Origin: a virus
Taxonomy: Duplodnaviria; Heunggongvirae; Uroviricota; Caudoviricetes
Direction: 5' to 3' (one strand)
IMG/VR virus record: IMGVR_UViG_3300017992_000017
Coordinates: 33,418-97,417 of that record
DNA length: 64,000 nt
The notes beneath the pieces were generated by a model. That model worked only from the letters and a program-made list of their open reading frames with translations, was not told where the DNA came from and ran no database searches. Each line of letters starts with the position of its first letter. The stretch's first letter is position 1. A program made the translations under genes and the position numbers. Shown here piece after piece: positions 41,129 to 43,920 of the stretch.

Positions 41129-41842
41129 TCACGTGGTAACCCCCGGTTCACGAGGTGCGATCGCTGTAAGACACATCTCCCCGACCTGAGAAGAACGCCA
41201 CATCTCCCCGACCTGAGAAGAATGCCACATCTCCCCGACCCGAGAAGAGTCATGCATCTTCCCGACCTGAGAAGAATGCCACATCTTTCCGACCTGAGAA
41301 GAGTCATGCATCTTCCCGACCTGAGAAGAGTCATGCATCTCCCCGACCTGAGAAGAACGCCACATCTCCCCGACCTGAGAAGAATGCCACATCTCCCCGA
41401 CCCGAGAAGAGTCATGCATCTTCCCGACCTGAGAAGAGTCATGCATCTCCACAACACACTGTGCGCCGTCAACGTGTTTCAGGATCGCATCGCCTAGGAG
41501 GACAATGCTCCGTACAACGCTTGGAAGGAAAGCTGTCGTACCGGTCCGTAGCACGGCAAGCCACGGTAGCAGGGACGATATACCGTTAAGTGTTCGTAGC
41601 TCCCGGACCAGCTCGTCTGCAGCACCTACGACACGATCAGGAACACAATCACCCCGTAACGGTTGGGTAGGGTATGGCACATCCGACCAGCATCGTGGCG
41701 TAAGTTCCCATTCCCAGAATCGCTGCCGTCCGATCCCGTTCTCCCCACCGATATACCGTCTCGCCAGCTCGGTGTGGCCATGGACCCCGTCCGCGACAAG
41801 ACGTCCGTCCCGACAGATATTGACCGACAAGAAATCACACAT
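41129..41842 (-). CDS. repeat protein: conserved N-terminal domain (MCDFLS...) followed by ~10 in-frame 9-aa tandem repeats (SSQVGEMWH-like)
   Basis: N-terminus paralogous to 42859..43872; C-terminal half encoded by 27-bp tandem repeats. Confidence 0.5.
   Translation of the reverse strand: MCDFLSVNICRDGRLVADGVHGHTELARRYIGGENGIGRQRFWEWELTPRCWSDVPYPTQPLRGDCVPDRVVGAADELVRELRTLNGISSLLPWLAVLRTGTTAFLPSVVRSIVLLGDAILKHVDGAQCVVEMHDSSQVGKMHDSSRVGEMWHSSQVGEMWRSSQVGEMHDSSQVGKMHDSSQVGKMWHSSQVGKMHDSSRVGEMWHSSQVGEMWRSSQVGEMCLTAIAPREPGVTT
41170..41450. repeat. ~10 tandem copies of a 27-bp repeat (GACCTGAGAAGAA(C/T)GCCACATCTCCCC and variants)
   Basis: visible periodicity; multiple of 3, in frame within CDS 41129..41842. 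Confidence 0.8.
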
Positions 41843-42119
41843 GCGAAAGTGCTCCTATCACGTTGTTCAGGTCCGACAGATCCGGCTCACCCCACAGAAT
41901 CTGAAACGAATACCCGGTACTCCACTCGCTGAAGTACCCTTGCTTGTAGAGACCGACCAGCTGTTCCCCGTCGAAGGTCCCGATGAGGTACCAGGTCTGT
42001 CCCTGTTCGCTGAGGAAGGCATCCAGAATCTGTCGGGTCATGTTCTCTCTTTCAAAATTCGCAGGGACCTCGAAACCCAGGTCTTCGTCGAACCCCGTAG
42101 GTCCGAGGTCCCTGCTCAC
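41835..42119 (-). CDS. hypothetical protein
   Basis: 94 aa. Confidence 0.4.
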   Translation of the reverse strand: MSRDLGPTGFDEDLGFEVPANFERENMTRQILDAFLSEQGQTWYLIGTFDGEQLVGLYKQGYFSEWSTGYSFQILWGEPDLSDLNNVIGALSHV

Positions 42120-42134
42120 CCCAACCCCGGAGGA

Positions 42135-42368
42135 CTACACCACTGCTACACGCGTTGGCCGGATTCCTCCCTTCCAGATCTCCAGACCGGTCGGGAGAGC
42201 TGTTCCCCATAGGGTCCGGAGATGATCCTGGAAGTCGTCGGCCGTTTTCCACATCCCCAGGACCGGTCCGTACGTGTCAAGATGTCCCGGCAGTCGGTAG
42301 TACCAGCAAGTCATGACAGTTCTCCGTTGGTTAGAGAGGCACCTGCGTCCGGTTTCGCCCTGATCCAT
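42135..42368 (-). CDS. hypothetical protein
   Basis: 77 aa. Confidence 0.3.
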   Translation of the reverse strand: MDQGETGRRCLSNQRRTVMTCWYYRLPGHLDTYGPVLGMWKTADDFQDHLRTLWGTALPTGLEIWKGGIRPTRVAVV

Positions 42369-42508
42369 CGAGATGTGGCTCTCGAATCTCCCCCGGCTAC
42401 ACAGGTATCCGCCGTAGTCCAGTCGCTTTGGGTGTGAAGTCCACCAATCGGGTAGGGATGCGACTTACCACAAGTCGCTGCGACCGGTTCCCAGGTTTAC
42501 TACGGTTT

Positions 42509-42841
42509 CTAGCCTCTGTTCTCCTCTTGCTTCCGAAACGCCGAGACGATCCGCGTTTCCTTGCCTGTACCCGAGATCCCGAACCCGATCCGGTCATTCT
42601 CTTCGGCGTACGCTTTCATCCGTTTGCGTGCCTCCGGATCATGACCGTCTAGTGGGAGGTACCAGTAGTCGCCGGTCAGTTCCCAGCCGAAAGGGACCGT
42701 ACGACCGATCACCGGCAACTCATCCACCGGCAAGGTCAAGATCTCATCCGGGGTCCAGCAGACGTACGGGGTGAGGTTTCGTTTGCAATGCTGTACGGCG
42801 ACGGCATTGTTACGCTGAACGATCTGAGCTCCTGAAAGCAT
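42509..42841 (-). CDS. hypothetical protein
   Basis: CCAGGAGGACCTACC-ATG: AGGAGG SD 7 nt before ATG at 42841, immediately after stop of upstream repeat protein. Confidence 0.45.
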   Translation of the reverse strand: MLSGAQIVQRNNAVAVQHCKRNLTPYVCWTPDEILTLPVDELPVIGRTVPFGWELTGDYWYLPLDGHDPEARKRMKAYAEENDRIGFGISGTGKETRIVSAFRKQEENRG

Positions 42842-42858
42842 GGTAGGTCCTCCTGGAG

Positions 42859-43872
42859 TTAGATTGGTTGTCCATTCTGGATCGAACAGGACTCTGCACA
42901 CCGGATCAAACAGGAACCTGCATTCTGGATCGAACAGGAACCTGCACTCTGGATCGAACAGGACTCTGCACACCGGATCGAACAGGACTCTGCATACCGG
43001 ATCGAACAGGACTCTGCACACCGGATCGAACAGGACTCTGCATACTGGATCGAACAGGAACCTGCATACTGGATCGAACAGGACTCTGCACACCGGATCG
43101 AACAGGAACATGCACTCTGGATCGAACAGGACTCTGCACACCGGATCGAACAGGAACCTGCATACCAGATCGAACAGGAACCTGCACTCTGGATCGAACA
43201 GGACTCTGCATTCTGGATCGAACAGGAACCTGCATTCTGGATCGAACAGGAACCTGCATACCAGATCGAACAGGAACCTGCATTCTGGATCGAACAGGAA
43301 CCTGCATTCTGGATCGAACAGGACTCTGCATTCTGGATCGAACAGGACTCTGCATTCTGGATCGAACAGAAACCTGCATACCGGATCGAACAGGACTCTG
43401 CATACTGGATCGAACAGGAACCTGCATCCCGCATCGAACAGGAACCTGCATTCTGGATCGAACAGGACTCTGCATACTGGATCTTTGCTGATCCTGCATG
43501 AAGAATCTGACAGCCGTTGAGGCATCTATGGATCTTCACCTTGCCCGTCAGGATCCAGCGTCCAGCTCCCAGGACCCTCTGGTCCTCACTAACGATCATG
43601 CGCTTAATACGTTCCCGAAGCGACTCCACCGTCCTGGTTCGCATCTCCTCAGTAAACCAGTCTGGGACAACCGTTTCATCTACGACAAACCCGTAGTTGT
43701 CGAGATCTGCATAGTCCTTGCCGTTAGGGACAAACTCAACACGGCAGAAATTGTCCGAACGTGTATCTGAGAGATTCCGTAGGTCGACCAGGTTCTCGTG
43801 CGAATCGGTGGCTTCTGGACGACAAATGATATCCCCATTCTTGAGGACAATGGCTGAAAGGAAGTTACACAT
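42859..43872 (-). CDS. repeat protein paralog: MCNFLS... N-terminal domain followed by ~26 in-frame 8-aa tandem repeats (AGSCSIQN-like)
   Basis: N-terminus MCNFLSAIVLKNGDIICRPEATDSHENLVDL vs MCDFLSVNICRDGRLVADGVHGHTELARRY of 41129..41842; C-terminus encoded by 24-bp tandem repeats. Confidence 0.5.
   Translation of the reverse strand: MCNFLSAIVLKNGDIICRPEATDSHENLVDLRNLSDTRSDNFCRVEFVPNGKDYADLDNYGFVVDETVVPDWFTEEMRTRTVESLRERIKRMIVSEDQRVLGAGRWILTGKVKIHRCLNGCQILHAGSAKIQYAESCSIQNAGSCSMRDAGSCSIQYAESCSIRYAGFCSIQNAESCSIQNAESCSIQNAGSCSIQNAGSCSIWYAGSCSIQNAGSCSIQNAESCSIQSAGSCSIWYAGSCSIRCAESCSIQSACSCSIRCAESCSIQYAGSCSIQYAESCSIRCAESCSIRYAESCSIRCAESCSIQSAGSCSIQNAGSCLIRCAESCSIQNGQPI
42870..43490. repeat. ~26 tandem copies of a 24-bp repeat (GGATCGAACAGGA(A/C)(C/T)CTGCA(T/C)(A/T)C(T/C))
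   Basis: visible periodicity; open in several frames (explains long spurious ORFs on both strands). Confidence 0.85.
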
Positions 43873-43920
43873 CGGTTCTCTCCTGGGGTTATTCGTCGGC
43901 AAGCCAAGCAGCGTTGCCAG

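What the first reader, a model, noticed from the sequence alone, without database searches (positions are those of the whole stretch)
41129..43902. Two paralogous proteins with a shared N-terminal domain but different in-frame tandem peptide repeats (9-aa x ~10 vs 8-aa x ~26)
Genes 41129-41842 and 42859-43872 both start MC(D/N)FLS... and then run into perfect tandem DNA repeats of 27 bp and 24 bp respectively, encoding SSQVGEMWH-like and AGSCSIQN-like units. Because the units are multiples of 3 with near-identical copies, repeat number can change by slippage/recombination without frameshift, making these contingency-type, rapidly variable proteins (candidate receptor-binding, surface or decoy proteins). 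A separate small gene (42509-42841) with a strong AGGAGG SD starts right after the second one.
Basis: seen in the sequence. Interest (0 to 1): 0.65.

Follow-up and report, generated by a model that had tools for sequence, protein, structure and literature searches.

The report
Phage repeat-rod proteins, variable length
Two neighbouring genes of a large uncultured phage belong to a big, undescribed, phage-restricted protein family: a small conserved head domain starting with an invariant cysteine, followed by a rod of short tandem peptide repeats whose number and order differ between near-identical phage genomes.

Summary
Gene 41129-41842(-) carries 10 in-frame 27-bp units ([HW][DHR]SS[QR]VG[EK]M). 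Gene 42859-43872(-) carries 26 in-frame 24-bp units (A[GE]SCSI[QRW][NYSCD]). The copies are near-identical, not perfect (80-87%).

The two are distant paralogs. BLASTP alone is not convincing, but profile-profile comparison gives 96% probability. Both belong to a family of at least 2,100 clusters (50% identity) found almost only in phage and metagenome contigs. No Pfam, PHROG, NCBIfam, PADLOC or PDB match covers the head domain.

Family members combine an about 95-aa alpha/beta head (invariant Cys2, Ser6, His25, Pro70, Trp72) with a predicted beta-solenoid of 9-, 8-, 7- or 5-residue units. The 9-mer of gene 1 is the canonical unit. The 8-mer of gene 2 is a one-residue-shorter derivative.

Arrays change fast. 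Other assemblies of this same phage (at least 99.7% identical flanks) lack 6 units in gene 1, or carry a rearranged gene 2 array. About a third of related contigs end inside the array.

A receptor-binding or surface role is not supported: no signal peptide, non-structural neighbourhoods, and some members have only 1-2 units. The best guess, which is inference, is a cytoplasmic host-interaction protein with an evolvable solenoid surface. The function remains untested.

The parts
42859..43872 (-). Gene 2 (337 aa): canonical family head domain plus 26 octapeptide units. It is the longest member among about 230 family proteins compared (one IMG/VR member, L005, is 346 aa).
   Evidence: ORF and translation. 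The start ATG at 43872 lies behind AGGAGAG (43878-43884). All homologs start with MC. The family HMM hits it with E 1e-57.
43498..43872 (-). Gene 2 head region. Residues 1-95 form the head (beta-alpha-beta-beta-alpha). Residues 96-125 form the first solenoid coil (LLGG-type). Invariant family residues are C2, S6, H25, P70 and W72.
42874..43497 (-). Gene 2 array: 26 in-frame 24-bp units encoding A[GE]SCSI[QRW][NYSCD]. The 12-nt core TCCTGTTCGATC is almost invariant (three single-base variants). Variation is confined to codons 2, 7 and 8.
   Evidence: TRF and the unit table. The array is identical in independent contig L037 and rearranged in L042. Contig L038 ends inside it at window 43343. AF2 predicts all-beta with pLDDT 74-89 for residues 121-240, falling to 29-68 from residue 231 to the end (lowest around 251-270).
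41129..41842 (-). Gene 1 (237 aa): divergent-subfamily head (MCDFLS...GVHGHTEL...RFWEWEL...LPWLAVLR) plus 10 canonical nonapeptide units.
   Evidence: ORF. Its own subfamily P0242-P0246 is 55-100% identical. hhalign of this subfamily against the main family gives 96.1% probability and E 3e-9 over the first 75 columns. The start overlaps the upstream ORF 41835-42119 by 8 nt.
41174..41443 (-). Gene 1 array: 10 in-frame 27-bp units encoding [HW][DHR]SS[QR]VG[EK]M. An 81-bp block (units 2-4) is duplicated as units 8-10. A degenerate unit (DGAQCVVEM) precedes the array at 41444-41470.
   Evidence: TRF reports periods 27, 54 and 81. L037 and L038 lack exactly 162 bp (6 units) here within otherwise 99.99-100% identical DNA.
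42509..42841 (-). Adjacent 110-aa gene behind an AGGAGG Shine-Dalgarno sequence. It is listed because the finding mentions it. There is no evidence that it belongs functionally to the repeat genes.
   Evidence: Sequence. No family hit. No homolog next to family genes in 34 other loci. It is present and identical in L037.

Best explanation
Both genes are members of a large, undescribed, phage-restricted protein family.

Shown:
- Each protein starts with Met-Cys and a conserved head of about 95 aa with an alpha/beta fold.
- The head continues directly into a rod of short tandem peptide units. Most members use 9-mers (consensus [RYWL][GDE][SN][SA]x[VI][GN]x[MVL]), some use 8-mers, and a few use 7-mers or classical pentapeptide repeats.
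- AF2 predicts the repeat region to be all-beta and solenoid-like. Two 9-mers or two 8-mers per coil would give 18 or 16 residues per coil.
- Within an array, four positions are almost invariant (presumed core). Three contiguous positions around the conserved hydrophobic residue are hypervariable.
- Units are nearly identical at the DNA level, and the differences between them are overwhelmingly non-synonymous.
- Arrays gain, lose and reshuffle whole units between near-identical genomes.

Inferred:
- The arrays change by unequal recombination or replication slippage between units. Because units are multiples of three, this alters rod length and surface without breaking the frame.
- Gene 2's 8-mer is the 9-mer minus one residue in the hypervariable corner (ESCSIQNA against DSSKVGEMY).
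- The protein acts inside the infected cell as an accessory host-interaction factor (counter-defence or host take-over). The invariant Cys2/His25 head would be the effector or active site. The solenoid would be an evolvable binding surface or spacer under diversifying selection.
For: Family membership and size:
- 7 close hits with the same architecture.
- A head-only profile finds 2,106 clusters at 50% identity with E<=1e-3, 1,039 of them at E<=1e-10. Nearly all match from residue 1, and lengths in the listed best 150 run from 138 to 318 aa.
- 33 IMG/VR viral contigs carry a member, against 2 of 185,579 species genomes.

Repeat classes and positions:
- Repeat classes across members are listed.
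- A 9-mer logo from 106 arrays gives within-array entropy of 1.0-1.3 bits at positions 1, 2 and 8, and <=0.25 bits at positions 3, 4, 6 and 9.
- In gene 2 nearly all variation is at codons 2, 7 and 8, with no synonymous change in the core.
- Across 32 arrays there are 322 non-synonymous against 46 synonymous variant codon types.

Structure:
- The head-domain model has pLDDT 93.9. The repeats are predicted all-beta.
- The top Foldseek hits are non-significant, and most of them are beta-helix or other solenoid proteins.

Array turnover:
- Gene 1 has 10 units in the window but 4 in L037 and L038, an exact 162-bp difference in DNA that is 99.99-100% identical.
- Gene 2's array is rearranged in L042, which has 2 mismatches in 714 bp upstream.
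- L002/L003 (99.94% identical) and L021/L023 (99.79%) diverge only in the array.
- 10 of the 33 IMG/VR genes are cut by a contig end inside the array.

Location and context:
- No signal peptide (sequence). Neighbours are early, replication or accessory genes and are not conserved.

Paralogy:
- hhalign gives 96.1% probability.
Against: - Function is not tested and nothing in any library hints at it.
- AF2 confidence falls to 29-68 from about residue 231 of gene 2 to the end (lowest around 251-270).
- All copy-number comparisons rest on short-read assemblies, which can collapse or misjoin such arrays. The gene 1 difference is exactly what collapse of the duplicated 81-bp block would produce.
- The non-synonymous:synonymous count is crude: it counts distinct codon types and includes some near-duplicate loci.
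- Members with only 1-2 units show that a long rod is not essential.
- Both window genes lack the D-x-R-x-K-K tail found in about half of the family.
Confidence: 0.6

Rival explanations
1. Neutral accordion. Only the head domain is functional. The C-terminal solenoid tolerates insertion and deletion of whole coils, so arrays drift in length and composition by recombination without adaptive value.
For: - Family lengths run from about 138 to 346 aa, and some members have just 1-2 units.
- Four different unit lengths (5, 7, 8, 9 residues) occupy the same place, suggesting a generic requirement.
- Very high DNA identity between units indicates recent amplification.
Against: - The same 4-conserved/3-hypervariable pattern recurs in 106 arrays.
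- Differences between units are about 7:1 non-synonymous and concentrated at three positions.
- Nearly every member of a family of more than 2,000 clusters retains repeats.
Confidence: 0.2
2. Virion protein: a receptor-binding, spike or needle protein whose 8- or 9-residue repeats form a trimeric intertwined beta-helix like the T4 gp5 C-terminal needle.
For: - The 8-mer arrays weakly match tail PHROGs. Gene 2 against phrog_9992 'baseplate assembly protein' gives E 6e-5.
- P0135 matches phrog_9992 (E 2e-5) and phrog_430 'baseplate hub subunit and tail lysozyme' (E 8e-4).
- From my own knowledge, gp5C is built of VxGxxxxx octapeptides.
Against: - The matches cover only the repeats and are weak.
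- In all contexts examined the gene sits among small early, replication or accessory genes, never in a structural module.
- The same head is fused to classical pentapeptide repeats in some members, which as far as I know form monomeric solenoids.
- Members with 1-2 units exist.
- Two paralogs lie 1 kb apart in a non-structural region.
Confidence: 0.08
3. DNA mimic or topoisomerase-type inhibitor, by analogy with pentapeptide-repeat proteins (Qnr, MfpA): the rod imitates DNA and blocks a host DNA-binding enzyme or restriction system.
For: - A few family members carry true pentapeptide repeats (P0043, P0115, P0120, P0127; P0223 with PF00805).
- The phage early-region location fits anti-restriction genes.
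Against: - The solenoid part is not acidic: median pI is 8.9 in the family, and net charge is -1 over 229 residues in gene 2.
- Only about 3% of members use pentapeptides.
- No sequence or fold match to Qnr/MfpA.
Confidence: 0.06
4. Targeted hypermutation. The variable codons (AAT to TAT/AGT/TGT/GAT, CAG to CGG) would reflect adenine-directed, retroelement-driven (DGR-like) diversification.
For: Many of the variant positions in gene 2 are adenines of an AAT codon and a CAG codon.
Against: - No reverse transcriptase. Pfam scans of large ORFs found none.
- The only Y[x]DD motif in ORFs of 200 aa or more is in a protein with no Pfam hit and not in a reverse-transcriptase context.
- There is no template copy of either unit outside the arrays.
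- Non-adenine positions also vary (GGT/GAG/TGT, CAG/TGG).
- The variant cassettes are duplicated as blocks, which fits recombination.
Confidence: 0.02
5. Artefact or non-coding function. The arrays would be assembly artefacts, or DNA-level elements (iterons or binding-site arrays) that only happen to be open in frame.
For: - All three frames of both strands are open across the arrays.
- Short-read contigs often break in such arrays.
Against: - The gene 2 array is base-for-base identical in an independent JGI contig.
- The peptide pattern xxSSxVGxM is conserved across hundreds of diverged proteins whose DNA differs.
- The coding frame is continuous with a conserved head domain.
Confidence: 0.03

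Closest known systems
Pentapeptide-repeat proteins (Pfam PF00805; Qnr, MfpA)
   Same: Both are soluble proteins built as a beta-solenoid from very short tandem units. A few members of this family actually use pentapeptide repeats behind the same head domain.
   Different: Genes 1 and 2 use 9- and 8-residue units and give no Pfam pentapeptide match. The rod is not acidic. The conserved Met-Cys head is absent from known pentapeptide-repeat proteins.
RTX nonapeptide beta-roll (GGxGxDxUx)
   Same: Nine-residue units. The family often shows 18-residue super-periodicity, consistent with two units per coil as in a beta-roll.
   Different: There is no GGxGxD calcium-binding motif. The consensus is [RYWL][GDE][SN][SA]x[VI][GN]x[MVL]. 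The proteins are not secreted and there is no RTX Pfam hit.
Ice-nucleation / antifreeze-type solenoids with 8/16-residue repeats, and the T4 gp5C octapeptide beta-helix
   Same: Eight-residue periodicity with small residues (AGS.., GGT..). The best (non-significant) fold hits include a beta-helical antifreeze protein and GlmU. There are weak PHROG hits to gp5-type baseplate proteins.
   Different: No significant sequence or fold match. The genomic context is non-structural. The proteins are cytoplasmic. Gene 2 has a cysteine in every unit (SCS).
DUF7666 + Pentapeptide_2 phage proteins
   Same: Analogous architecture in phages: a small conserved N-terminal domain followed by near-identical short tandem repeats (NSGDR/NSGHW). 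One such gene lies 0.8 kb from a family member in L041.
   Different: The N-terminal domain is different: none of 58 head domains matches DUF7666 or any other Pfam family. It also has an extra C-terminal domain.
In-frame tandem repeats of Borg elements (PMC9879509)
   Same: Near-perfect, recently formed, rapidly evolving tandem repeats inside ORFs of a large mobile element. This window also has three further non-coding tandem arrays.
   Different: According to that paper's abstract, Borg amino-acid repeats mostly create intrinsically disordered regions and arise independently. Here the repeat is an ancient, family-wide structural module predicted to be all-beta.

Membership tests
New 'Met-Cys head + solenoid' phage family (defined here) | Protein starts M-C-x-[FY]-x-S, and the head profile matches from residue 1. 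| tested here: met
   Gene 2 matches the family HMM with E 1e-57 from its first residue. Gene 1 starts MCDFLS, with a weak direct HMM hit (E 1e-5 and 2e-3) but hhalign 96.1% and E 3e-9 through its own subfamily.
New 'Met-Cys head + solenoid' phage family (defined here) | Invariant head residues C2, S6, H25, P70, W72 and the LLGG entry into the solenoid. | tested here: inconclusive
   Gene 2 has all of the invariant residues and LGAG in place of LLGG. Gene 1 and its subfamily keep C2, S6, a His at the equivalent place (HGH) and a Pro, but lack W72 and have LLGD. The region after column 75 is not alignable by hhalign.
New 'Met-Cys head + solenoid' phage family (defined here) | C-terminal array of short tandem units with the conserved-core / variable-stripe pattern. 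| tested here: met
   Gene 1 units fit the 9-mer consensus from 106 arrays. Gene 2 units align to it with one residue deleted. Related AGSCTIQD units occur in L016 and AG[SY]ATIQx units in P0135.
Pentapeptide repeat family (PF00805/PF01469) | Tandem A(D/N)LXX-type 5-residue units detected by the Pfam model. | tested here: not met
   Neither gene gives a Pfam pentapeptide hit at E<=1. Their periods are 9 and 8 residues.
RTX beta-roll | GGxGxDxUx nonapeptide with calcium-binding Gly/Asp. | tested here: not met
   The unit sequences lack GGxGxD, and there is no Pfam hit.
Diversity-generating retroelement target gene | A nearby reverse transcriptase, plus a template repeat that differs from the variable repeat at adenines only. 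| tested here: not met
   No reverse transcriptase in the window. No copy of either unit outside the arrays. Non-adenine sites also vary. The remainder of the genome (at least 97 kb) was not examined.
Ntn (N-terminal nucleophile) hydrolases | An N-terminal Cys/Ser/Thr nucleophile at the start of a beta-strand in a four-layer alpha-beta-beta-alpha fold. | tested here: not met
T4 gp5 / VgrG-type trimeric beta-helix spike | Octapeptide VxGxxxxx repeats forming a trimeric needle, encoded in the baseplate module. | tested here: inconclusive
   There are weak repeat-only PHROG matches. The genomic context is not a baseplate module. The oligomeric state could not be tested.
Bacterial-type contingency locus (phase variation) | Repeat-number change switches the gene on or off by frameshift or by changing promoter spacing. 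| tested here: not met
   Units are 24 and 27 bp. The observed variants differ by 162 bp and 144 bp and remain in frame. This is length and surface variation, not on/off switching.

The most novel reading that the evidence does not exclude
The Met-Cys head is a new fold carrying a Cys2/His25 active site. It would define a previously unrecognised, very widespread class of phage effectors (for example a counter-defence enzyme). Specificity or reach would be tuned by a recombination-driven, length- and surface-variable beta-solenoid, which would work as a built-in, retroelement-independent diversification module.
Probability: 0.25. Interest if true: 0.75.

Novelty: new variant of a known kind. 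Interest (0 to 1): 0.55.

Why it matters
Proteins made of short in-frame tandem repeats that form solenoids and vary in copy number are well known. This particular family is not, even though it comprises thousands of sequence clusters. Its head domain has no match in Pfam, PHROGs, NCBIfam, PADLOC or the PDB, by sequence or by fold. It appears almost exclusively in uncultured phages.

The family combines three things:
- An invariant N-terminal cysteine and a conserved histidine.
- Interchangeable 5-, 7-, 8- and 9-residue solenoid units.
- A hypervariable stripe maintained alongside strong DNA-level homogenisation of the units.

That pattern is what one expects of a protein in an arms race with the host, which makes it a reasonable candidate for functional screening as a counter-defence or host take-over factor.

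There is also a practical point. These arrays are a recurrent cause of contig breaks and possible collapse in phage metagenome assemblies. Ten of the 33 related IMG/VR genes end in the array.

Tried and rejected
- **Direct BLASTP of gene 1 against gene 2.** Not significant (E 0.059). Paralogy needed subfamily profiles.
- **Library scans of the genes and their neighbours (Pfam, PHROGs, NCBIfam, PADLOC, PDB sequence).** Only spurious low-complexity hits such as Cornifin, LIM and BigA, or weak repeat-only hits.
- **Foldseek of the full-length gene 2 model against PDB.** Nothing significant.
- **BFVD.** Only two uncharacterised phage fragments, which appear to be family members.
- **AFDB50.** Not available.
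- **Conserved-neighbour search across 34 loci.** No partner gene found. Gene 1-type genes in other phages have no gene 2-type neighbour.
- **DGR hypothesis.** Rejected.
- **DNA-mimic hypothesis.** Weakened by the charge analysis.
- **Megablast of 20 kb of the window against INPHARED.** No match.
- **tblastn of the gene 1 head.** No match.
- **Exact-pattern scans of IMG/VR for this phage's genes.** Nothing found.
- **Genome-contig scan with alignment A3.** Failed because there was no conserved stretch. It was redone with A2.
- **Literature searches.** No description of this family or of DUF7666.
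Full report
**1. Observation**

Tandem Repeats Finder reports two arrays at the stated places:
- 41174-41450: period 27, 10.3 copies, 80% matches. Read as an 81-bp period it gives 87%.
- 42873-43483: period 24, 25.5 copies, 87% matches.

Both lie in frame in minus-strand ORFs. Gene 1 is 41129-41842 (237 aa, MCDFLS...). Gene 2 is 42859-43872 (337 aa, MCNFLS...). Each has a Shine-Dalgarno-like sequence before the ATG. 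They are the only MCxFxS ORFs in the window.

In register, the units read as follows:
- Gene 1 has ten units [HW][DHR]SS[QR]VG[EK]M. An 81-bp block (units 2-4) is duplicated as units 8-10.
- Gene 2 has 26 units A[GE]SCSI[QRW][NYSCD].

The 12-nt cores occur 22 and 8 times, and only inside the arrays.

**2. Are the two genes paralogs?**

BLASTP alone is unconvincing (E 0.059 over 28 residues). Profile evidence is better:
- The head of gene 2 retrieved seven metagenomic proteins with the same architecture.
- A profile of those heads hits gene 2 at E 1e-57 and gene 1 only weakly among all window ORFs.
- The head of gene 1 has its own subfamily, P0242-P0246, at 55-100% identity. One of them comes from a Planctomycetota MAG.
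- A profile-profile comparison of that subfamily with a 58-sequence alignment of the main family gives 96.1% probability and E 3e-9 over the first 75 columns.

Gene 1 and gene 2 are therefore distant paralogs from two subfamilies, not a recent duplication. Gene 1's type is conserved across several phages, so it is not a decaying copy.

**3. The family**

An exhaustive profile search with the head alone finds 2,106 clusters (50% identity) at E<=1e-3 and 1,039 at E<=1e-10. Almost all match from residue 1, and lengths in the listed best 150 run from 138 to 318 aa.

Annotation is absent:
- Every source name is 'hypothetical protein'.
- No head domain matches Pfam, in 58 members scanned, nor PHROGs, NCBIfam or PADLOC.

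Distribution points to phages:
- The pattern MC[NK]F[LY]SA[IL] alone finds 33 IMG/VR viral contigs. It finds only 2 of 185,579 species-representative genomes, both MAGs.
- INPHARED holds two metagenome-derived hits.

The invariant head residues are C2, S6, H25, P70 and W72.

Behind the head, the best 150 proteins carry different unit lengths: 9-residue units in about 119, 8-residue units in about 20, and classical pentapeptide repeats in about 5. One IMG/VR locus has a 7-mer. Roughly half of the family ends with a D-x-R-x-K-K tail, which both window genes lack.

So gene 1's 9-mer is the canonical unit. Gene 2's 8-mer aligns to it with one residue deleted (ESCSIQNA against DSSKVGEMY). Its first unit, GSAKIQYA, resembles P0001's GSAKIGEVC. 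Similar AGSCTIQD units occur in L016. At 337 aa, gene 2 is the longest of about 230 family proteins compared; one IMG/VR member (L005) is 346 aa.

**4. Structure**

- AF2 on the head with 58 sequences gives pLDDT 93.9 and pTM 0.85. The order of elements is beta-alpha-beta-beta-alpha, followed by the first coil strands.
- BFVD returns only two uncharacterised phage fragments.
- Full-length gene 2 is predicted all-beta through the array. Block-mean pLDDT is 74-89 for residues 121-240, and falls to 29-68 from about residue 231 to the end, lowest around 251-270.
- The best Foldseek hits are non-significant, and most are beta-helix or other solenoid proteins: GlmU, polygalacturonase, antifreeze, CsgA.

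The coil geometry (16 or 18 residues per coil) and the proximity of Cys2 and His25 are therefore inferences. The frequent 18- and 16-residue super-periods support the coil estimate.

**5. Evolutionary behaviour of the arrays**

Position pattern. In 106 nine-residue arrays the consensus is [RYWL][GDE][SN][SA][QKSR][VI][GN][EV][MVL]. Within-array entropy is 1.0-1.3 bits at positions 1, 2 and 8, and <=0.25 bits at positions 3, 4, 6 and 9. Gene 2 shows the same pattern. Nearly all variation is at codons 2, 7 and 8, and there is no synonymous change in the 12-nt core. Over 32 arrays, variant codon types are 322 non-synonymous against 46 synonymous. This is a crude count, and some loci are near-duplicates.

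Structural turnover in this phage:
- Contigs L037 (JGI 3300028895) and L038 (ENA ERZ27256790) are 99.99-100% identical to window 31129-49066. The exception is that gene 1 lacks exactly 162 bp (6 units), giving 183 aa instead of 237 aa.
- Gene 2's array is base-identical in L037.
- L038's 76.6-kb contig ends inside that array, at window 43343. If the contig and the window are collinear, this also implies a genome of at least 97 kb.
- A third contig, L042, has 2 mismatches in the 714 bp upstream. It lacks units 7-12 of gene 2, carries two amino-acid substitutions in the shared units, and continues differently at the 3' side before running off the contig.

Turnover elsewhere:
- L002/L003 (99.94% identical) and L021/L023 (99.79%) diverge only in the array.
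- Ten of the 33 IMG/VR genes are cut by a contig end within the array.

Caveat. All of these are short-read assemblies. The gene 1 difference is exactly what collapse of its duplicated 81-bp block would produce. The unique substitutions in L042 argue that at least that variant is a real strain.

**6. Context and location**

The window is phage-like. It encodes family A DNA polymerase fused to UDG, a clamp-like protein, a RecA-like protein, a gp32-like protein, an SbcCD-like pair, two DNA methylases, a radical SAM protein and an integrase. It has no near relative among deposited phages.

The two genes lie in a minus-strand block of small unknown genes next to a phosphoesterase. In eight other contexts examined, the family gene is likewise among early, replication or accessory genes, and once next to an integrase and excisionase in a Pirellulales MAG. 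It is never in a structural module.

No neighbour is conserved. That includes the 110-aa gene that follows gene 2. The proteins have no signal peptide or membrane segment (sequence).

**7. Mechanism**

Shown:
- The repeats are in frame and coding.
- The family has a core/stripe position pattern.
- Units are homogenised at the DNA level.
- Whole-unit gain, loss and reshuffling occur between near-identical genomes.

Inferred:
- The changes arise by unequal recombination or slippage between units.
- The repeats form a solenoid rod whose variable positions stack into one exposed stripe.
- The protein acts in the cytoplasm as an accessory host-interaction factor. The Cys2/His25 head would be the effector, and the rod an evolvable binding surface or spacer.

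I put about 0.85 on the structural and evolutionary part, and about 0.35 on the functional part.

Rivals:
- Neutral accordion (0.2).
- Virion spike or receptor-binding protein, supported only by weak repeat-level PHROG hits to gp5-type proteins and contradicted by context (0.08).
- DNA mimicry like pentapeptide-repeat proteins, weakened by the non-acidic rod with median pI 8.9 (0.06).
- DGR-type mutagenesis, rejected because there is no reverse transcriptase and no template copy.
- Artefact or DNA-level element, rejected by the identical independent assembly and by family-wide peptide conservation.

**8. Comparison with the known, and novelty**

The proteins work like other beta-solenoid repeat proteins: pentapeptide-repeat proteins, RTX beta-rolls, and ice-nucleation or antifreeze solenoids. 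They also behave like in-frame variable-number tandem-repeat proteins.

Genes 1 and 2 fail the defining sequence features of each named family (see the membership table). The head domain is an orphan. An architecturally analogous but unrelated phage family (DUF7666 + Pentapeptide_2) sits 0.8 kb from a family member in L041. I found no paper describing either family.

Borg elements offer a parallel for rapidly evolving in-ORF tandem repeats (PMC9879509, abstract as shown). There, the repeats mostly create disordered regions.

Verdict: a real feature. It is a new variant of a known kind, and moderately interesting.

Noticed in passing
window 49158-49295 and 53083-53227 (minus strand): Two tandem arrays whose periods are not multiples of three (28 bp x4.9 and 34 bp x4.1) share the motif GT(A/G)CA(C/T)GTCAGAATGGGAAC(GGGAAC)n. 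There are 8 exact copies of GTCAGAATGGGAAC, all on the minus strand and only in these arrays, against 0.86 expected for matches with up to 2 mismatches. The first array ends just before an ATG (MRVTEFEV...). They look like intergenic or 5'-leader regulatory repeats.
   Followed up: partly
window 53236-53355: A 19-bp unit (minus strand GGTCTGGTTCTGGAAGCTC) is repeated 6.3 times at 100% identity, directly upstream of the 34-bp array. The window therefore holds five tandem arrays in 64 kb, reminiscent of the tandem-repeat richness reported for Borg elements.
   Followed up: no
window 49066 and 43343; L037, L038: Independent contigs of the same phage end in or close to tandem arrays. L038 ends inside the gene 2 array at 43343. 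L037 ends at 49066, which is 92 bp short of the 28-bp array. If L038 is collinear with the window, the genome is at least 97 kb.
   Followed up: partly
window 42509-43525 (minus strand): A second frame through the 24-bp array (CRFLFDPE...) is open and continuous with the downstream 110-aa gene. An indel in the array that is not a multiple of three would therefore fuse the array to that gene. This is probably just a consequence of stop-free repeats.
   Followed up: no
L041 9203-10135: A 310-aa protein with Pfam DUF7666 + Pentapeptide_2 (NSGDR/NSGHW five-residue repeats) lies about 0.8 kb downstream of a family member. It represents a second, unrelated phage family with a head-plus-tandem-repeat architecture.
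   Followed up: partly
window 48849-49316 (minus strand); L032 5284-5727: The ORF behind the 28-bp array matches (38% identity over 138 aa, E 2e-21) an ORF immediately upstream of the family gene in an unrelated IMG/VR contig (L032). It was the only non-family match between window genes and the 34 loci apart from one weak hit and repeat-frame artefacts.
   Followed up: no
window 11767-11835 and 31060-31134: ARAGORN calls two tRNA-like genes on the plus strand. One is a tRNA-Thr (TGT). The other has an odd two-base anticodon call.
   Followed up: no
window 4112-6562: A single 816-aa ORF combines a uracil-DNA glycosylase superfamily domain, a 3'-5' exonuclease and a family A DNA polymerase.
   Followed up: no
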